Sequence record: PZ386977.1
Reading direction: 5' to 3' (one strand)
Source of the DNA: a phage
DNA: 64,000 bases
Shown here: positions 17,077-56,234 of the stretch, in pieces
Layout of the letters: every line of letters begins with the position of its first letter
How positions within the stretch are numbered: position 1 is the first letter of the stretch
Made by a program: the position numbers and the translations under genes
The notes under the pieces: model-generated
What the model saw: only the letters and a program-made list of their open reading frames with translations
The model's database searches: none
Told to the model about the DNA's origin: nothing

Positions 17077-17730
17077 TTAATACTTACATGATTTGATTGT
17101 TTCTATGAACAATTTCTTAGCAGCATTTCCATCGATTTGAAGTATTTTTCGATATGCCTTTAATTTGGTAGAATAATTTTGCCAGACTAAATTGTCAGTG
17201 AGTTCGTCATGCTTATCTATAATATTCAAAAATGAGTCCAACAATAAGAAAGTCTCAAATGAAATTATATTGCTTTGTAGCAATTTGAATATGTAGCTCG
17301 ACTGAACGTTGTTATTATAATCAAATATCTCTTGAAGCGCACTAACTTCAACTTTCTTACTGAAATAGTAGATGTTACGTACGTCTTCAGCAAACGTCTC
17401 TTTAGCTTGTTTGAGACGTCCAATATATTCCCTATAGAAAACTAATGCATCAGCGTCTGATATCTCACCAATCCATGCGTCTTGGTTAGCAACTAAGTTA
17501 CTAATGAATATCAAGGTGAGTTCCTTCAATTTATATTTCTCTGCTAGTTTTTCAAAGAAATATTTATCTCGGCGTTTTTGATACGCATTATCCGAAACAC
17601 GCATGCACCAGTTATATTTGATTACGTCATACCGACCATTAAAATGTTGTTTGCACATCAAGTATAGTTTGTATACCGATTTTCCGTTAATATAACGTTC
17701 TCCGTCAGGAGGCATGCGTATTTTAATCAT
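17077..17730 (-). CDS. 59: gp59 helicase-loading protein
   Basis: 217 aa; near-identical to recalled T4 gp59 (MIKIRMPPDGERYINGKSVYKLY...). Confidence 0.9.
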   Translation of the reverse strand: MIKIRMPPDGERYINGKSVYKLYLMCKQHFNGRYDVIKYNWCMRVSDNAYQKRRDKYFFEKLAEKYKLKELTLIFISNLVANQDAWIGEISDADALVFYREYIGRLKQAKETFAEDVRNIYYFSKKVEVSALQEIFDYNNNVQSSYIFKLLQSNIISFETFLLLDSFLNIIDKHDELTDNLVWQNYSTKLKAYRKILQIDGNAAKKLFIETIKSCKY

Positions 17731-18065
17731 AATAAGAAATCTAACGTATTAGTTTTTTCACCACGAGCAACTGATGGGCGAAGCATGTTTTCGTCAATTG
17801 CTTCGCTTGTAATTTTTTCAACAATTCCTGTAGGAATAAATTTAGCAAATTGCGTTTCTGGAATAGAATTTTCTTCTAAGAAAGCAGTTGTTGCTTCTAA
17901 ATAAGACATACCAAATTGTTCAACCATAGATTCGATAATGAATCCGTTTTCTTGTCGGTCAAGCAATTTAGCGATATCATCTTTATCATGTTTTACTGCT
18001 AATTCTTGTTCAGATAAACCGGCCTCATCAACCGGTTTAATATCACTTAGTGAAAACTGTGTCAT
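17727..18065 (-). CDS. 33: gp33 late-transcription co-activator
   Basis: 112 aa; MTQFSLSDIKPVDEAGLSEQEL...; overlaps gene 59 start by 4 nt. Confidence 0.85.
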   Translation of the reverse strand: MTQFSLSDIKPVDEAGLSEQELAVKHDKDDIAKLLDRQENGFIIESMVEQFGMSYLEATTAFLEENSIPETQFAKFIPTGIVEKITSEAIDENMLRPSVARGEKTNTLDFLL

Positions 18066-28250: not shown

Positions 28251-28802
28251 ATGAAACTCTATCACTATTATTTTGACACTAAAGAATTTTACAAAGAAGA
28301 AAATTATAAACCATTAAAAGGCGTAGGATTTCCGGCTCATTCGACACCAAAAAAACCTTTAGACCCTAAAGAAGGCTATGCTGTTATATTTGACGAACGC
28401 GAGCAAGAATGGGTATATGTTGAAGACCATCGAGGAAAAACAGTATGGACATATGATAAGCAAAAAATTGTTATTGACACTCCAGGTGCTCTTAAAAATG
28501 TTACTACAGAAGAACCTGGTGAATTTGACCTTTGGACCGACGACGGGTGGAAGGAAGATGAAGCATATAAACGCGTAGTTCAACGTGATAAGAAAATTCA
28601 TGAACTCTATAAATTATTCAGTGTTTTAAGTTCTCTTATTGACGCAGAGGTTGCTAATAGAGAAGAAAAACGAAAATTTAAAGAGCTCAAAAAATTCTTT
28701 GCCCTTTTAGAAAAACATGAACATCTTGGCGGCGAATTCCCTAAATTCCCTGACCTTGAAAACAAATCTATTATCAAAGCGATTATAAATATCTTTAAGT
28801 AA
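28251..28802 (+). CDS. 38: gp38 tail-fibre assembly chaperone (T4 type, not T2-type adhesin)
   Basis: 183 aa; MKLYHYYFDTKEFYKEENYKP... and FFALLEKHEHLGGEFP match T4 gp38. Confidence 0.85.
   Translation: MKLYHYYFDTKEFYKEENYKPLKGVGFPAHSTPKKPLDPKEGYAVIFDEREQEWVYVEDHRGKTVWTYDKQKIVIDTPGALKNVTTEEPGEFDLWTDDGWKEDEAYKRVVQRDKKIHELYKLFSVLSSLIDAEVANREEKRKFKELKKFFALLEKHEHLGGEFPKFPDLENKSIIKAIINIFK
28784..28791 (+). promoter_or_regulatory. late promoter TATAAATA for holin gene t (inside 3' end of gene 38)
   Basis: Exact TATAAATA 20 nt upstream of t ATG. Confidence 0.6.
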
Positions 28803-28811
28803 GGAGGTATT

Positions 28812-29471
28812 ATGGCAACACCAAAAGTATCATTTTCGCCTAGTGATATTCTATTTGGGTTGCTAGATCGTATTTTCAAAGATAACGCTACTGGAAAGGT
28901 TTTAATGTCCCGAGTAGCGGTAATTATTCTTTTGTTCCTAATGGCACTAATATGGTACAAAGGAAGTATTTTGCTGGATTATTATGTAAGAGCTAAGTAT
29001 GATACTTATACTGAAATAATCCAAAAAGAACGAGCTTTACGTTTTGAATCTGCGGCTCTAGAACAACTGCAAATAGTTCATATCTCATCTGGTGCAGATT
29101 TTAGTGCTGTGTATTCTTTCAGACCTAAAAACTTAAATTATTTCGTCGACCTTATAGCTTATGAAGGCAAACTGCCTAGCACAATTTCTGAAAAGTCCCT
29201 TGGGGGATTCCCAGTAGATAAAACGGCCAATGAATATATAATTCATTTAAGTGGCCGTCATTTCTCGTCTAAATCAGAATTTGCATTTTTGCCTACAAAA
29301 TCTAAGACTGCCGAACTTTCTTATATGTATAGTTGTCCATACTTTAATTTGGATAACATCTACGCTGGAACTGTGACGATGTATTGGTATAAGGGGAGTA
29401 ATATACTTGAGGAAGATCGCTTAGCAGCTATATGCAACCAAGCGGTCCGAATACTAGGAAGGGCTAAATAA
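28812..29471 (+). CDS. t: holin T
   Basis: 219 aa; single N-terminal TMD (VAVIILLFLMALIWY) and large periplasmic domain; matches T4 T. Confidence 0.9.
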   Translation: MATPKVSFSPSDILFGLLDRIFKDNATGKVLMSRVAVIILLFLMALIWYKGSILLDYYVRAKYDTYTEIIQKERALRFESAALEQLQIVHISSGADFSAVYSFRPKNLNYFVDLIAYEGKLPSTISEKSLGGFPVDKTANEYIIHLSGRHFSSKSEFAFLPTKSKTAELSYMYSCPYFNLDNIYAGTVTMYWYKGSNILEEDRLAAICNQAVRILGRAK

Positions 29472-52454: not shown

Positions 52455-52691
52455 TTAACCACTTACTGGTGTAGGGGTAAACATTGCAGCGTTCTTAGTA
52501 CGCCAATCTGCTGCATCAGAAACGACATCAGAATAAGCTGCATTTTCTGATGGAAAGATTTGGTAATGAGAATCTGCAATCCGATGTTCGTTTGAATAAA
52601 TCTCAAACGGAACAGAAACTTCCATACCTTTTACTTCTTCGCCTTCACCAGCAGGATGCGTAAAGGTTTTGATGTTTACATAACCACCCAT
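52455..52691 (-). CDS. soc: Soc small outer capsid protein
   Basis: 78 aa; MGGYVNIKTF...HYQIFPSENAAYS; from memory closer to RB69 Soc than T4 Soc. Confidence 0.85.
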   Translation of the reverse strand: MGGYVNIKTFTHPAGEGEEVKGMEVSVPFEIYSNEHRIADSHYQIFPSENAAYSDVVSDAADWRTKNAAMFTPTPVSG

Positions 52692-52722
52692 AATTAACTC
52701 CTTTGTTGTTTAATTACAGGTG

Positions 52723-52730
52723 TATTTATA
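52723..52730 (-). promoter_or_regulatory. late promoter TATAAATA for soc
   Basis: Exact TATAAATA on minus strand about 30 nt upstream of soc ATG. Confidence 0.7.
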
Positions 52731-52736
52731 ACTTAA

Positions 52737-53258
52737 TTAGTAACCATTATCCTGACGTTCAAAGTTGTGTTGGTTTTTCAAGTAGTAAAGTTTAAAGATT
52801 TCTTCAGCAGAAAGACCAAGACCTTGGAACATATTTAGAACGAAATGCAGAATATCAATCATTTCAAATTTAATTTCAAGCTGGTCTTCAGGAGACAGTT
52901 CATCGATACGACGATTTCGATATTCAGCATGTTGTGCTTTCCATGGCTTCCATACACTGCTGGCGGCTTTTTCACCATTGCTCATACCACCAAGTGAAGT
53001 CAGCAGTTCACGGAATTCATCATCAATATAATCTTTCTGATTACGCAGCCAATCAACAACATCACCAGCAGTAGCCAATTCATCAGGATGTTTGTTATGT
53101 TCAGGCTTGTCATTTGCCAGACGAACCTGTAAAGATTTCTGCATATCAAGCATTACCTGAAGTGGGTCTTTATCTTCGTGAATCAGAGCATTAAAATAAG
53201 CTTCTTCTGCTTTATCAACACCAGAAATAAGTTGTGAACATTCGTTAAAGTGTGCCAT
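52737..53258 (-). CDS. 56: gp56 dCTP/dCDP pyrophosphatase
   Basis: 173 aa from ATG 53256-53258 (MAHFNEC...); MazG-like EIxDILHFVLNMF; track ORF starts at upstream TTG. Confidence 0.85.
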   Translation of the reverse strand: MAHFNECSQLISGVDKAEEAYFNALIHEDKDPLQVMLDMQKSLQVRLANDKPEHNKHPDELATAGDVVDWLRNQKDYIDDEFRELLTSLGGMSNGEKAASSVWKPWKAQHAEYRNRRIDELSPEDQLEIKFEMIDILHFVLNMFQGLGLSAEEIFKLYYLKNQHNFERQDNGY

Positions 53259-53346
53259 TATTTTTCCTTTCAATTCAGTATAAGAGAGTTAATTCTAACA
53301 TTAATTTTATAAAGCGTAATAAATAATAGGTAACTAAGGAGATATT

Positions 53347-53544
53347 ATGTTTAAACTTACATCGTTAATCAACGCTATTAAAGGCAATAAAAAGAAAACT
53401 GCTATCGCCGCAATAGTTGTAGGTGGCATTATTTCATGGAACTTCGGGATTGCACCATTGTTAGTTGCCCATGGTATTATAGTTCCTTCTGTTCCATTGG
53501 ATACCGTAGTTGATTTGGCCTTTGCTATTATAGGACTTGTTTAA
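53347..53544 (+). CDS. small two-TMD membrane protein (65 aa) on plus strand
   Basis: Strong AAGGAG SD 7 nt before ATG; hydrophobic segments AIAAIVVGGIISWNF and VVDLAFAIIGLV; convergent with gene 61. Confidence 0.5.
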   Translation: MFKLTSLINAIKGNKKKTAIAAIVVGGIISWNFGIAPLLVAHGIIVPSVPLDTVVDLAFAIIGLV

Positions 53545-54563
53545 ATCTTCGAATAACGAGATAATCTCATTTTAGCATGCAACCCACTTGAAATATTCTG
53601 TTTCATATATTCTAAAATTTCTTGTGGTGTTGCATTTTCTTTCATTACCATATCATTCACATCCTTTGAACTCCATGGAGCTCGGTCCCAGAACATAACA
53701 CGTTCACCTGCATCAACTAATCGCTTCATACGAGCTATAGTATCCGGATGCCTAGGTTCATTATCCATTACCCATACCCGACGTTCTTTAAATGGTACCA
53801 CATCTAAATCTATCGAGCCGCCTGTAATAGCGATTGCATTGGGTATGAATAAACTATCAATAGGACCTTCCATTACCCAGACGTCTCCTTCCTTAACACG
53901 TTCAACACCATAAATTTTTGTTGCAGACTCAAACGCTTTAATAGTGATATATTTCTGAGGAGCATCTTTACGAAGTGCACGTCCTTGGAATGACTCGGCC
54001 TTCCCGTCTTTATTAAAAATAGGAATCACTAAACGTGGCTCGGGAATCTCTTTCTTATACGTGCCTGGTTGAATCTTGTTGACCAATTTAGGCCATTCTA
54101 ATGTGAACCATAATCTGTTCCACGATTCTTTAGGAATACACCGAGACTTAACATATTTCACAATAGGATGCTCTTCAGGCAACTTGTCCAGGCGAGAACA
54201 AGACGGCAAAGAATTTATAGTCTTTTTCTCCGGTTCTGGTTTATGTTCAGGAACCTTTTCAATCTTTGGTTCCATTCTAGCTTTTTCTTTACGAACTTCC
54301 ATTAGATATTCGCGATAAAGCTCTTCATCATACTCTTTTAAGTATCCGGAAATCGTATTATGATATTGGCAGTTATAGCAATGCACATTACCCGGAGTAC
54401 CGCCATAATACCATCCGCGAGCTTTCATTGCATCTGTCTGAGAGTCGCCACAAACTGGACATCGAAATGTTAATTTAAATGTGCTTGAATTATTGATTTG
54501 TCTAAAACGAGGTAGGTGAGAAAACGCACGATAAGCAAATTCGTTATCTATCCATTCAGCCAT
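53541..54563 (-). CDS. 61: gp61 DNA primase
   Basis: 340 aa; N-terminal zinc ribbon CPVCGD...CYNCQYH; Toprim motifs. Confidence 0.9.
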   Translation of the reverse strand: MAEWIDNEFAYRAFSHLPRFRQINNSSTFKLTFRCPVCGDSQTDAMKARGWYYGGTPGNVHCYNCQYHNTISGYLKEYDEELYREYLMEVRKEKARMEPKIEKVPEHKPEPEKKTINSLPSCSRLDKLPEEHPIVKYVKSRCIPKESWNRLWFTLEWPKLVNKIQPGTYKKEIPEPRLVIPIFNKDGKAESFQGRALRKDAPQKYITIKAFESATKIYGVERVKEGDVWVMEGPIDSLFIPNAIAITGGSIDLDVVPFKERRVWVMDNEPRHPDTIARMKRLVDAGERVMFWDRAPWSSKDVNDMVMKENATPQEILEYMKQNISSGLHAKMRLSRYSKI

Positions 54564-54576
54564 AGTATTCTCCAGA

Positions 54577-54596
54577 GGCCTTAAATTAATAAGGCC
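54577..54596 (-). other. hairpin GGCCUUA-6nt-UAAGGCC directly upstream of gene 61 SD
   Basis: Perfect 7-bp inverted repeat between 61.1-like stop and gene 61 start; no U-tract. Confidence 0.5.
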
Positions 54597-54602
54597 ATCA
54601 TA

Positions 54603-55097
54603 TCACAACTTATTAATATTTACTTTAATTCGCTTTCTTTTCTTGGAAGGAATTTGTTCTGGACCTTTATTTACGACTGCACCTGTAGTTGTTCCTGATG
54701 CAATAGCTTGAGGGCTGCCACCTGAATCACCAGCCACCATATCCTCAAATAAAGGGAGTTCTTTAAATATTTCTTTCTGCTGTTCTTCCGTAATGTTATA
54801 GCGTGAAGCTACAGCACTCCAGGCAGACATCATTGAGGCCATTCCATTAAGACCTGGAACAGTGCTCATCATTCGCTTCATTGAACGAACTGAAGCATGA
54901 AAAGGTGTATAAGCCGCTTTCTCTTCGGGAGTAGAAGGACGTTTAAGAACACTTCCACGTTCGTCGATTATTTTGGCTTCATACGCTTTCCATTCTGTAA
55001 AAGGTTTTTGCATTAGTCGAATAAACTTATATGCATAAACTGAATCTATTGCAGTGTTAATAATACCCATAGGTACCTCCTGAGTATATTTAATCAA
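54603..55097 (-). CDS. hypothetical protein (164 aa), 61.1 position
   Basis: ORF track. Confidence 0.55.
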   Translation of the reverse strand: MIKYTQEVPMGIINTAIDSVYAYKFIRLMQKPFTEWKAYEAKIIDERGSVLKRPSTPEEKAAYTPFHASVRSMKRMMSTVPGLNGMASMMSAWSAVASRYNITEEQQKEIFKELPLFEDMVAGDSGGSPQAIASGTTTGAVVNKGPEQIPSKKRKRIKVNINKL

Positions 55098-55288: not shown

Positions 55289-55948
55289 TTAACCTCGATT
55301 CATAAATGCATTAAATATTTGGTCATCAACAGAAATTTCTAATTCGACTTCAATTGCTTCAGCCTTTTCTTCAGGTGGTAATTCGTATCCACATACTACA
55401 ATTTTTTCATCGATATCAAAATATACAGAAGCAATATGATTAATGTTATTTTCAGTTAAGTCTAAATCAACATCAACATCTTTTTGACCTACACTTAAAG
55501 GATAACTAATACGGGTTATTTTATTATCTTTAACAAAGAGTCCACCAACATACTCTGTACTACGTTTGAAGTTTACACGTTTCCGAATTGAAAGATATGA
55601 TACATCTTTACCGTGAGCTCGGCTCATAGGACATAATGAATAACTAGAATAAGAGATGTCAAATCCTACGCCTTCAACATGTGCTAGAGTATCATGAGTA
55701 AACCAATTATAGTCGTATGCCAAATCCATTAAATTATAATATGTGAAAGGCACAGGATTAACGTCATACGTTGTACCTTTAAAATCTGCCCAGGCAACGA
55801 TTTCGTTATCTTTAACAATTACAAAAATTACACCAATATGGTATCCGTTATTATTTTCATTCGGCGTTATATTATAACATTGTGCATTAGGAAATTTACC
55901 ATATTTAAATGGCGCGTTTTTGTGCATGTAATAAATCATATTATTCAC
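55289..55948 (-). CDS. hypothetical protein (219 aa)
   Basis: ORF track. Confidence 0.55.
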   Translation of the reverse strand: MNNMIYYMHKNAPFKYGKFPNAQCYNITPNENNNGYHIGVIFVIVKDNEIVAWADFKGTTYDVNPVPFTYYNLMDLAYDYNWFTHDTLAHVEGVGFDISYSSYSLCPMSRAHGKDVSYLSIRKRVNFKRSTEYVGGLFVKDNKITRISYPLSVGQKDVDVDLDLTENNINHIASVYFDIDEKIVVCGYELPPEEKAEAIEVELEISVDDQIFNAFMNRG

Positions 55949-56234
55949 CTGTGATTTCGGTTACGATATCTTTGTTATCGAAATTAGGGTCACAATACAA
56001 AACATAGTTGTACTGCATGATACCGCCAGACTTAAGTTGTTCAACAACTTTATTAACCATATTAGGACGGTCTCGTTTAGTGATGTTCATGATATCAGAG
56101 AAGATTTGTTGTTCAACATCTTCTTGATTTGCAGTCATTGACCACTCACAGAGGTCTTTATCATAACCTGCTGTAACTGGAGCTGGTGCACATGATACTG
56201 CAAGTAAGATTGCTGCCAATGATAACTTTTTCAT
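55941..56234 (-). CDS. sp: Spackle-like periplasmic protein (superinfection exclusion / gp5 lysozyme inhibitor)
   Basis: 97 aa with cleavable signal peptide (MKKLSLAAILLAVSCAPAPVTA) and conserved-looking GYDKDLCEW...QYNYVLYCD; T4 sp size and position. Confidence 0.6.
   Translation of the reverse strand: MKKLSLAAILLAVSCAPAPVTAGYDKDLCEWSMTANQEDVEQQIFSDIMNITKRDRPNMVNKVVEQLKSGGIMQYNYVLYCDPNFDNKDIVTEITGE

What the first reader, a model, noticed from the sequence alone, without database searches (positions are those of the whole stretch)
53347..53544. Plus-strand small membrane protein gene embedded antisense in a minus-strand early block
A 65-aa ORF with a strong AAGGAG SD and two hydrophobic segments runs opposite to all neighbours (56 and 61) and converges on the 3' end of the primase gene with a 4-nt overlap of stop codons. 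T4 has the oriA region and small ORFs near here. It could be a late-expressed membrane peptide (holin/antiholin-like or immunity function) or a source of antisense regulation of gene 61.
Basis: seen in the sequence. Interest (0 to 1): 0.5.

Follow-up and report, generated by a model that had tools for sequence, protein, structure and literature searches.

The report
Conserved late small membrane-protein gene
The 65-codon plus-strand ORF beside the primase gene is a real, conserved gene of T4-like phages, almost certainly transcribed late, that encodes a tiny membrane protein of unknown function. It is already annotated as "hypothetical" in hundreds of genomes but is missing from the T4 reference annotation.

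Summary
Window 53347-53544 (+) is an intact 65-codon ORF with an AAGGAG Shine-Dalgarno, lying opposite to gene 56 and primase gene 61 and sharing a TTAA double stop with gene 61.

- **Origin:** the window is an RB69-like Mosigvirus.
- **Family:** the ORF belongs to PHROG family phrog_2024 (RB69ORF029w, RB32ORF030w), function unknown. tblastn finds it full-length in 686 of 693 phage records.
- **T4:** an intact, unannotated copy sits in T4 at NC_000866 17738-17938.
- **Selection:** between genera synonymous sites are saturated (pS 0.6-0.8) while pN is 0.30-0.37, and codon position 2 is the most conserved. The protein is under purifying selection.
- **Spread:** relatives, in two subfamilies that sometimes sit in tandem, occupy the same spot in at least nine T4-like genera (eight Tevenvirinae plus Marfavirus).
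- **Promoter:** 12 of 13 loci examined carry an ATAAATA late-promoter core (CGG4-1 has TTAAATA), 12-21 nt before the start codon, with a strong SD. The geometry matches this phage's own holin gene t.
- **Structure:** AlphaFold (pLDDT 86) gives a basic N-terminal helix, one 25-residue membrane helix, a conserved Pro/Gly loop and a short C-terminal helix.

No holin, immunity or any other family matches. Antisense control of primase is not conserved. The gene is ordinary in kind and already catalogued, but uncharacterised.

The parts
53347..53544 (+). CDS of a 65-aa small membrane protein (phrog_2024 family, B subfamily; equivalent of RB69ORF029w / RB32ORF030w)
   Evidence: ORF present. phrog_2024 match, E 2.2e-27, full length. 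686 of 693 phage records hold a full-length copy. Purifying selection. AlphaFold model, pLDDT 86.
53336..53341 (+). Shine-Dalgarno AAGGAG, 5 nt before the ATG
   Evidence: Read from the sequence. A GGAG/GGAGG block occupies the same place in all 13 loci.
53318..53325 (+). T4-type late-promoter-like octamer AATAAATA (A at -13), 21 nt before the ATG
   Evidence: Motif scan. An ATAAATA core is kept in 12 of 13 loci and is TTAAATA in CGG4-1. The A(-13) variant is documented (PMC2988020; PMC1524935). The spacing matches that of holin gene t at 28784-28812. No transcript data are available.
53541..53544 (.). TTAA: overlapping convergent stop codons of the ORF (TAA 53542-53544) and primase gene 61 (TAA on the minus strand, 53541-53543)
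   Evidence: Read from the sequence. The same 4-nt overlap occurs in T4, RB32, ESCO47, Marfa, QL01, Kosakonia 305 and TH41. It is absent in CJ20, JD18, CGG4-1 and the metagenome contig.
53292..53319 (-). Middle-promoter-like site for gene 56, back-to-back with the late octamer: MotA-box-like TTACGCTTTA (reverse complement of 53310-53319), 12-nt spacer, -10 TAGAAT (reverse complement of 53292-53297)
   Evidence: Pattern found in the window and in RB32, Gaprivervirus, ESCO47, Gelderlandvirus and Dhakavirus loci. Consensus and 12 +/- 1 spacing taken from PMC2988021. Predicted only.
52737..53258 (-). Neighbour: gene 56 (dCTP pyrophosphatase), divergent from the ORF
   Evidence: phrog_173 match, E 1.6e-45. 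Annotated as such in near-identical genomes.
53541..54563 (-). Neighbour: gene 61 (DNA primase), convergent with the ORF
   Evidence: phrog_47 match, E 3.8e-102. Annotated as such in near-identical genomes.

Best explanation
This is a genuine, conserved late gene of T-even-type phages that encodes a single-pass inner-membrane microprotein.

**Shown**
- The ORF is kept intact and under purifying selection across Tequatrovirus, Mosigvirus and Gaprivervirus.
- It has a sister subfamily at the same locus in Dhakavirus, Gelderlandvirus and Marfavirus (and as a second copy in ESCO47 and TH41), with more distant relatives in Jiaodavirus and Kanagawavirus.

**Inferred from sequence**
- *Transcription:* it is read from its own gp55-type late promoter (AATAAATA 53318-53325). 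This promoter sits back-to-back with a MotA-type middle promoter that drives gene 56 the other way.
- *Translation:* it starts from a strong SD.
- *Topology:* the lysine-rich amphipathic N-terminus (residues 1-17) stays on the cytoplasmic face. Residues 17-41 span the membrane. The family-wide invariant W31-N32 and near-invariant P37, A39, G43 and P47 lie in the outer half of the span and the loop after it. A short hydrophobic helix (52-62) lies at or in the periplasmic leaflet.

**Mechanism I consider most likely (inferred, about 40%)**
It acts the way bacterial small membrane proteins such as AcrZ do. It would dock through the conserved W-N...P...G...P segment onto a larger phage or host inner-membrane protein late in infection. 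That would tune an envelope or lysis-related step rather than form holes itself.

**My estimates**
- Real gene: 0.95.
- Late transcription: 0.8.
- Membrane protein with N-in topology: 0.75.
- Partner-binding modulator rather than pore-former or secreted peptide: 0.4.
For: **Existence and signals**
- The ORF, its SD and its strand are as described.
- The window is a Mosigvirus, and near-identical genomes annotate this CDS.

**Family**
- phrog_2024 full-length match.
- 693 phage records match and 686 are full-length, including an unannotated T4 copy.
- 112 clusters at 90% identity, nearly all of 62-74 aa.

**Selection**
- pS 0.59-0.79 against pN 0.30-0.37 between genera, and dN/dS 0.11-0.36 within genera.
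- Variable sites by codon position are 46/21/61 of 65.

**Promoter**
- An ATAAATA core lies 12-21 nt before the ATG in 12 of 13 loci (TTAAATA in CGG4-1) from nine genera; an alignment of ten of these upstream regions shows the flanks diverge.
- In the window only 12 such octamers occur on both strands. The canonical ones precede late genes with the same spacing, for example t and soc.
- No sigma-70-like plus-strand promoter lies nearby.
- Variation at -13 is documented.

**Operon behaviour**
Where two paralogues are in tandem, only the first has the late core. The second overlaps it by 8 nt or follows 8 nt behind.

**Structure**
- AlphaFold: pLDDT 86, helices 4-12, 17-41 and 52-62.
- Hydropathy profile.
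- Invariant W31 and N32; near-invariant P37, A39, G43, P47 and G63 across both subfamilies.
Against: - **No experimental data.** There is no transcript, ribosome-profiling, proteomic or genetic evidence for this gene in any phage. Full-text searches found nothing.
- **The promoter is a one-off variant.** The other late genes checked in the window use perfect TATAAATA. The relative strength of variant promoters in vivo is unknown.
- **No partner is identified.** The partner-binding idea rests only on the conservation pattern and on analogy.
- **No informative similarity.** Fold and sequence searches give no match outside the family.
- **Possible loss in one record.** One laboratory-evolved T4 record carries a frameshift in the ORF. 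Either the gene is dispensable in the laboratory or this is a homopolymer sequencing error.
Confidence: 0.6

Rival explanations
1. It is a lysis protein in the strict sense. It would be a second holin, a pinholin-like depolariser or an antiholin that sets lysis time together with T, RI and RIII.
For: - It is small, membrane-embedded and predicted to be made late, with the same promoter-SD-ATG geometry as holin gene t.
- The Mosigvirus and T4 versions of the membrane helix are rich in Gly, Ala, Ser and Thr.
- Two automatic annotations call family members "holin": EAWsc9 and the UniRef name for OE5505.
Against: - It matches no holin or antiholin model in Pfam, NCBIfam or PHROGs.
- The C-terminus is hydrophobic and carries no basic residues, whereas holins typically end in a charged tail.
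- It is not next to an endolysin, holin or spanin gene.
- The phage already has the canonical T holin.
- Strong conservation of specific loop residues is unusual for holins.
- The "holin" labels have no stated evidence.
Confidence: 0.17
2. The important product is the RNA. The late plus-strand transcript would run on into gene 61 and act as an antisense RNA that shuts off primase synthesis late in infection.
For: - The ORF converges on gene 61 with overlapping stops in seven of the sampled loci.
- No canonical plus-strand terminator is detected in window 52600-54700.
- T4 is known to transcribe both strands at several sites at different times (PMC2988020).
Against: - The amino-acid sequence itself is under purifying selection, so the protein matters.
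- In CJ20 a -23 kcal/mol hairpin plus U-run (z -7.4) separates the ORF from gene 61, and a similar hairpin is present in EAWsc9.
- The gap to the primase gene varies from -4 to +118 nt.
- In the window a stem followed by a U-rich run at 53577-53636 could stop the transcript within about 90 nt.
Confidence: 0.1
3. Residues 1-43 are a long cleavable signal peptide. Cleavage would release a hydrophobic periplasmic peptide of about 22 residues (IIVPSVPLDTVVDLAFAIIGLV).
For: - The layout is a basic N-region followed by a hydrophobic core.
- A conserved small-x-small motif sits at the end of the helix: A41-H42-G43 in subfamily B, and T/S-Q/K-G in subfamily A.
Against: - The hydrophobic stretch of about 24 residues and the 17-residue N-region are far longer than in typical signal peptides. 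That favours an uncleaved anchor (established knowledge).
- The best-conserved residues of the family, W31 and N32, lie inside the supposed signal peptide.
- AlphaFold models residues 17-41 as one confident helix.
- No signal-peptide predictor was available.
Confidence: 0.07
4. It is a superinfection-exclusion or immunity-type membrane protein, in the manner of Imm.
For: - It is a small inner-membrane protein.
- sp and imm homologues lie a few kb away in close relatives.
Against: - It has no similarity to Imm or Sp families.
- Known T4 exclusion genes are early, whereas this gene has only a late-type promoter and no sigma-70-like one.
- It is on the opposite strand to that gene cluster.
Confidence: 0.06
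5. It is not a gene. It would be a chance ORF in a promoter-rich spacer, conserved only because of DNA signals on the other strand.
For: - Minus-strand signals do overlap this region: the gene 56 middle promoter lies just upstream, and in T4 a terminator-like hairpin sits inside the ORF's 5' end.
- An ORF this long arises in 1.1% of shuffles.
Against: - The frame is intact in 686 of 693 records and across saturated synonymous divergence.
- The codon-position pattern is 46/21/61.
- The SD and start codon are conserved.
- Paralogues and translationally coupled tandem copies exist.
Confidence: 0.02

Closest known systems
PHROG family phrog_2024 (uncharacterised), including RB69ORF029w, RB32ORF030w (YP_802972.1), p000v gp151 (YP_010100153.1) and Marfa gp028
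   Same: - Full-length HMM match.
- Same length of 63-74 aa.
- Same position between gene 56 (or dam) and the 3' end of primase gene 61.
- Same strand, and the same upstream late core and SD.
   Different: Nothing material. The window copy differs by 1-4 residues from its nearest relatives. The family has no assigned function.
Phage holins (T4 T; class I-III holins and pinholins)
   Same: - Small phage membrane protein.
- Predicted late expression.
- At least one membrane helix.
   Different: - No sequence or profile similarity.
- Hydrophobic rather than charged C-terminus; the basic residues are at the N-terminus.
- Not in a lysis cassette.
- The phage has a T-type holin elsewhere.
Bacterial small inner-membrane regulatory proteins such as AcrZ, MgtS and CydX (analogy recalled from the literature, not tested here)
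   Same: - Similar size of about 30-70 aa.
- Single membrane helix with specific conserved residues, suggesting docking onto a larger membrane protein.
   Different: - No homology.
- Phage-encoded and late.
- No partner known.
T4 Imm and Sp envelope-protection proteins
   Same: - Small envelope proteins of T-even phages.
- The genes lie near gene 61 in relatives of this phage.
   Different: - No similarity.
- Those genes are early and on the minus strand, whereas this one carries a late-type promoter on the plus strand.

Membership tests
phrog_2024 (uncharacterised T-even small membrane protein; RB69ORF029w-like) | Significant full-length match to the family profile | tested here: met
   E 2.2e-27, residues 1-65 on profile positions 1-65 of 65. 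The T4, Gaprivervirus and A-subfamily proteins hit the same profile.
phrog_2024 (uncharacterised T-even small membrane protein; RB69ORF029w-like) | Conserved position: plus strand, between gene 56 (or dam) and the 3' end of primase gene 61 | tested here: met
   Window. T4, RB32, CJ20, ESCO47, CGG4-1, Marfa, QL01, JD18 and Kosakonia 305.
phrog_2024 (uncharacterised T-even small membrane protein; RB69ORF029w-like) | Family-invariant residues (W-N in the membrane helix; Pro, Gly, Pro in the following loop) | tested here: met
   W31, N32, P37, A39, G43, P47 and G63 are all present in the window protein.
T4-type late genes | TATAAATA-type element at -13 to -6, with no -35 element | tested here: met
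   AATAAATA at 53318-53325. A(-13) occurs at 9 of 50 listed T4 late promoters (PMC2988020). The core is conserved in 12 of 13 loci, with TTAAATA in CGG4-1.
T4-type late genes | A gp55/gp33/gp45-dependent transcript that appears after DNA replication begins | not testable with these tools
   No expression data were available, and none were found in the literature searches.
Holins | At least one transmembrane helix in a small protein | tested here: met
   Helix 17-41 at pLDDT above 90, and the hydropathy profile. This is a prediction only.
Holins | Hydrophilic, highly charged C-terminal tail | tested here: not met
   The last 14 residues, DTVVDLAFAIIGLV, contain no basic residue, and the protein ends in a hydrophobic run.
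Holins | Similarity to a described holin family | tested here: not met
   There are no holin hits in Pfam, NCBIfam or PHROGs, including scans of all 103 family members. The only structural neighbours are family members.
Holins | Linkage to endolysin or spanin genes, or being the phage's only holin candidate | tested here: not met
   The neighbours are gene 56 and gene 61. A T-type holin lies at 28812-29471 (phrog_860, E 2.4e-102).
Holins | Forms lethal membrane lesions at a programmed time | not testable with these tools
   This needs expression and lysis assays.
cis-antisense RNA regulators | Conserved transcription across the target gene | tested here: not met
   Only 4 nt of coding overlap. 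A strong hairpin plus U-run lies between the ORF and gene 61 in CJ20, and a similar hairpin in EAWsc9. The gap to the primase gene is variable.
Superinfection immunity proteins (Imm-like) | Similarity to the Imm family, and early expression | tested here: not met
   There is no Imm_superinfect hit, and no sigma-70-like plus-strand promoter upstream. A separate imm gene exists in relatives.

The most novel reading that the evidence does not exclude
A near-universal late-expressed membrane microprotein of enterobacterial T-even phages is a so-far-unrecognised component of the late envelope programme. Candidate roles are lysis timing, lysis inhibition or membrane-associated assembly. It would act by binding a specific phage or host inner-membrane protein through its invariant W-N...P...G...P segment. 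It has been overlooked in T4 itself because the reference genome does not annotate it.
Probability: 0.2. Interest if true: 0.6.

Novelty: already known. Interest (0 to 1): 0.33.

Why it matters
T4 is one of the most studied viruses, yet its reference record leaves a 309-bp "intergenic" gap between dam and 61. That gap holds this conserved gene.

Several properties mark the gene as being maintained for a reason:
- It is intact in about 99% of the matching phage records.
- It is held in the same place across at least nine T4-like genera.
- It is sometimes duplicated.
- It is apparently switched on together with the lysis and structural genes.

It is cheap to test because the T4 and RB69 genetic toolkits exist. 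The practical value here is modest:
- a correction to the T4 annotation;
- a defined candidate for late membrane biology;
- a compact example of a late promoter placed back-to-back with a middle promoter.

As a finding in this window it is ordinary. The ORF is already annotated as hypothetical in near-identical genomes.

Tried and rejected
- **Profile searches against Pfam and NCBIfam**. There are no hits apart from sub-threshold noise such as SSPI, Myc_target_1, Ldr_toxin and SecF.
- **First word-indexed homologue search**. It returned only close relatives.
- **Exhaustive HMMER search with a narrow B-type profile**. It found just two 50%-identity clusters. That understated the family, which only opened up after the A-type paralogue was found by synteny.
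- **PDB sequence-profile search** and **Foldseek against BFVD and PDB**. These returned only family members or noise. afdb50 was not available.
- **Literature.** No paper in the held library mentions RB69ORF029w or an unannotated T4 gene here, and none gives T4 ribosome-profiling or start-site data for this locus. The CRISPRi-ART and HIDEN-SEQ papers target annotated genes and say nothing about it. The Miller 2003 T4 genome review is not held, so I could not check whether the T4 site GATAAATA is among its 50 listed late promoters.
- **A conserved plus-strand terminator inside the 3' end of the primase gene**. A long-range stem exists in the window (z -2.3), T4, Gaprivervirus and Kosakonia 305. 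It is broken in Marfa and QL01 and is confounded by coding constraint, so I make no claim.
- **A read-through extension of primase.** The minus frame in phase with the primase stop stays open across the whole ORF in all nine B-type sequences. I judged this a by-product of a protein without Tyr or Gln and with a single His. I did not check whether the frame is closed in A-type genes, which encode Tyr, Gln and His.
- **Cleavable signal peptide.** Considered because of the conserved A-x-G motif, and rated unlikely (see rivals).

Full report
**What is there**

Window 53347-53544 (+) is an ATG-to-TAA ORF of 65 codons: MFKLTSLINAIKGNKKKTAIAAIVVGGIISWNFGIAPLLVAHGIIVPSVPLDTVVDLAFAIIGLV. AAGGAG lies at 53336-53341, 5 nt before the start.

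All credible neighbours run the other way:
- soc at 52455-52691;
- gene 56 (dCTPase) at 52737-53258;
- primase gene 61 at 53541-54563;
- the 61.x genes and sp beyond that.

The ORF and the primase gene overlap by the 4-nt palindrome TTAA (53541-53544), which supplies a TAA stop on each strand. An ORF this long arises in 57 of 5000 shuffles of the 286-nt spacer. That is unusual but not decisive on its own.

**Where the window comes from, and whether the ORF is known**

The region is 98-98.6% identical to RB69-like phages of the genus Mosigvirus, such as OLB35, p000v and ATK47. These records already annotate this CDS as "hypothetical protein". RB32 annotates its copy as RB32ORF030w, "similar to RB69ORF029w".

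The protein matches PHROG family phrog_2024, which has no known function, over its full length at E 2.2e-27. It matches nothing in Pfam or NCBIfam. Source names for members of the sequence clusters are all "hypothetical" or "uncharacterized".

**It is a real gene**

*Intactness.* tblastn finds the protein in 693 phage records, and 686 of them are full-length. This includes T4 itself at 54% identity. There the ORF (NC_000866 17738-17938, 66 codons) lies in the stretch between dam and 61 that the reference record leaves unannotated. T4's exact protein sequence appears only in raw-assembly sources, not in NCBI or UniProt.

*Selection.*
- Between Mosigvirus, Tequatrovirus and Gaprivervirus, synonymous sites are essentially saturated (pS 0.59-0.79), while non-synonymous differences are 0.30-0.37.
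- Within genera, dN/dS is 0.11-0.36.
- Across nine sequences, the numbers of variable sites at codon positions 1, 2 and 3 are 46, 21 and 61 of 65. This is the pattern of a hydrophobic coding sequence.

*Only defect examined.* One laboratory-evolved T4 record has a 1-nt loss in an A-run. This may be a sequencing error.

**The family is wider than it first looked**

Contigs encoding the more divergent relatives (ESCO47 and a metagenome contig) carry a second plus-strand ORF of 67 codons immediately upstream. It overlaps the first by 8 nt. This is a paralogue (subfamily A, MGTxFYQIWKL...) that also hits phrog_2024.

| Arrangement at the locus | Where found |
|---|---|
| Subfamily B alone | T4, RB32, Mosigvirus (window, OLB35, p000v) |
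| Subfamily A alone | Dhakavirus (QL01), Gelderlandvirus (CGG4-1), Marfavirus (Marfa) |
| A then B | ESCO47 and a metagenome contig |
| B then A | Gaprivervirus TH41 |
| B then a deleted remnant of A | CJ20, EAWsc9 |
| More distant members, same place | Jiaodavirus (JD18), Kanagawavirus (Kosakonia 305) |

A profile search found 112 clusters at 90% identity, nearly all of 62-74 residues. Across both subfamilies W31 and N32 are invariant. P37, A39, G43, P47 and G63 are nearly so.

**Expression signals**

*The late octamer.* Twenty-one nucleotides before the ATG lies AATAAATA (53318-53325). This is the T4 late-promoter octamer TATAAATA with A at -13.
- Geiduschek and Kassavetis report that 9 of the 50 listed T4 late promoters have exactly this variant (PMC2988020).
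- Nolan et al. report that -13 is poorly conserved in T4 relatives, including RB69 (PMC1524935).

*Conservation of the core.* An ATAAATA core occupies this position in 12 of the 13 loci examined, and CGG4-1 has TTAAATA. It lies 12-21 nt before the ATG and is followed by GGAG/GGAGG. In an alignment of ten of these upstream regions the flanking sequence diverges. The base at -13 can be any of the four.

*Rarity in the window.* Only 12 such octamers occur on the two strands of the window. The canonical ones precede late genes with the same geometry:
- holin t: TATAAATA at 28784, ATG at 28812;
- soc: octamer at 52730 on the minus strand.

*Other points.* No sigma-70-like plus-strand promoter lies upstream. 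In the tandem arrangements only the first gene has the late core, which is what an operon would show.

*The divergent promoter.* On the other strand, immediately abutting the octamer, is a good match to a MotA-dependent middle promoter aimed at gene 56. It reads TTACGCTTTA, then 12 nt, then TAGAAT (reverse complement of 53292-53319). This layout recurs wherever gene 56 is the divergent neighbour (consensus from PMC2988021). In Gaprivervirus and ESCO47 the TG of the MotA box supplies the C at -13 of the late octamer on the opposite strand.

All of this is sequence inference. I found no transcript data.

**The protein**

Hydropathy shows two hydrophobic stretches. AlphaFold2, run with a 103-sequence alignment, gives a confident model (mean pLDDT 86, pTM 0.67):
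- a short amphipathic basic helix, residues 4-12;
- one long helix, residues 17-41 (pLDDT 91-96);
- an extended loop, residues 42-51;
- an 11-residue helix, residues 52-62.

By the positive-inside rule, the lysine-rich N-terminus should be cytoplasmic. The C-terminal helix is too short to span a bilayer. I therefore read the protein as single-pass, with its conserved W-N...P...G...P segment in the outer leaflet and periplasmic face, and a short hydrophobic tail at the membrane surface. Searches of solved and predicted viral structures return only family members or noise.

**What it does**

Nothing here fixes the function. I commit to the following:
- It is a late-made inner-membrane microprotein (high confidence).
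- It most likely works by docking onto a larger membrane protein rather than by forming holes (about 40%).

The reason for the second point is the conservation pattern. The strongest conservation sits on specific residues in and just after the membrane helix, while both termini differ between subfamilies.

The alternatives fare as follows.
- **Holin or antiholin.** No profile match; hydrophobic rather than charged C-terminus; not in a lysis cassette; the phage has its T-type holin at 28812-29471. Two "holin" labels in databases are unsupported automatic names. A lysis-timing role is still possible (about 17%).
- **Antisense control of primase.** Unlikely as a conserved function. The protein is what is conserved, the distance to gene 61 varies from -4 to +118 nt, and CJ20 places a -23 kcal/mol hairpin with a U-run between the two genes.
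- **Cleaved signal peptide or Imm-like exclusion.** Minor possibilities.
- **Not a gene.** Effectively excluded.

**Verdict**

The holin, immunity and antisense readings are not supported.

The feature is already catalogued and annotated, though uncharacterised, so it is not novel as a kind. Its modest interest rests on three things:
- its near-universal retention next to the primase gene in T-even phages;
- its absence from the T4 reference annotation;
- its easy testability.

Noticed in passing
T4 NC_000866.4 17738-17938 (+) = L003 2492-2692: The T4 reference record has no feature between dam (ends at 17625) and gene 61 (starts at 17935). An intact 66-codon homologue lies there, with GATAAATA and AAGGAGG upstream. 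T4's exact protein sequence is absent from NCBI and UniProt sources.
   Followed up: yes
window 53292-53319 (-); also L005, L004, L006, L010, L012, L014: A MotA-box-like element, an 11-12 nt spacer and TA(t/g)AAT are aimed at gene 56. The site sits back-to-back with, and partly overlaps, the plus-strand late octamer, forming a compact divergent middle/late promoter pair. It is conserved wherever gene 56 is the neighbour.
   Followed up: partly
L010 2805-3008 and 3001-3198; L006 2501-2698 and 2707-2907; L004 2699-2816: Two paralogous subfamilies (A and B) of the small protein occur in tandem, in either order, in different phages. In CJ20 and EAWsc9 the A copy is reduced to a remnant. This suggests repeated gain, swap and loss at this one locus.
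   Followed up: partly
L004 2753-2795 (+): In CJ20 the remnant of the deleted A copy folds into a strong hairpin flanked by an A-run and a U-run (-23.2 kcal/mol, z -7.4). It looks like a bidirectional terminator between the small gene and the primase gene.
   Followed up: partly
L003 2507-2526 (-) = T4 17753-17772: A terminator-like hairpin with a U-run lies on the minus strand (ATGGCATTAACAAGTGCCAT then TAATTTTT; -8.9 kcal/mol, z -3.4). It sits inside the 5' coding part of the T4 small ORF and could end the gene 61 transcript. No equivalent was detected in the window.
   Followed up: partly
window 53577-53636 (+), inside the 3' end of primase gene 61: A long-range stem (GCAACCCAC / GUGGUGUUGC) is followed by a U-rich run (z -2.3). 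The pairing is kept with different bases in T4, Gaprivervirus and Kosakonia 305, but is broken in Marfa and QL01. It might stop the late plus-strand transcript. The evidence is confounded by coding constraint.
   Followed up: partly
window 28784-29471 (+): The canonical T-type holin gene (phrog_860, E 2.4e-102) has a perfect TATAAATA 20 nt before its ATG. It lies just after a tail-fibre assembly gene at 28251-28802.
   Followed up: partly
public records KU867307 (CGG41_026), SAKp28, PP146563 (MY02), PQ341120 (EAWsc9), and the UniRef entry for OE5505: Family members carry misleading product names: "dCTP pyrophosphatase", "DNA packaging ATPase", "holin family protein" and "Holin". The first two look like names slipped from other genes. 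The holin labels have no visible support.
   Followed up: partly
L001 6586-7191; L002 6242-6847; window 55941-56234 (-): In these Mosigvirus relatives the imm (superinfection immunity) homologue sits directly next to sp (spackle), downstream of gene 61. In the 5-kb T4 stretch examined, no imm gene lies next to sp.
   Followed up: no
window 53344-53543 (-), frame in phase with the primase stop: After the primase TAA, the same minus-strand frame stays open across the whole small ORF in all nine B-type sequences. This is probably a compositional by-product of a protein without Tyr or Gln and with a single His, not a read-through extension.
   Followed up: partly
L017 1911-2108 (LR597657, T4_ev240): A laboratory-evolved T4-like record has a 1-nt loss in an A-run that frameshifts the small ORF. 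Either the gene is dispensable in culture or this is a homopolymer sequencing error.
   Followed up: partly
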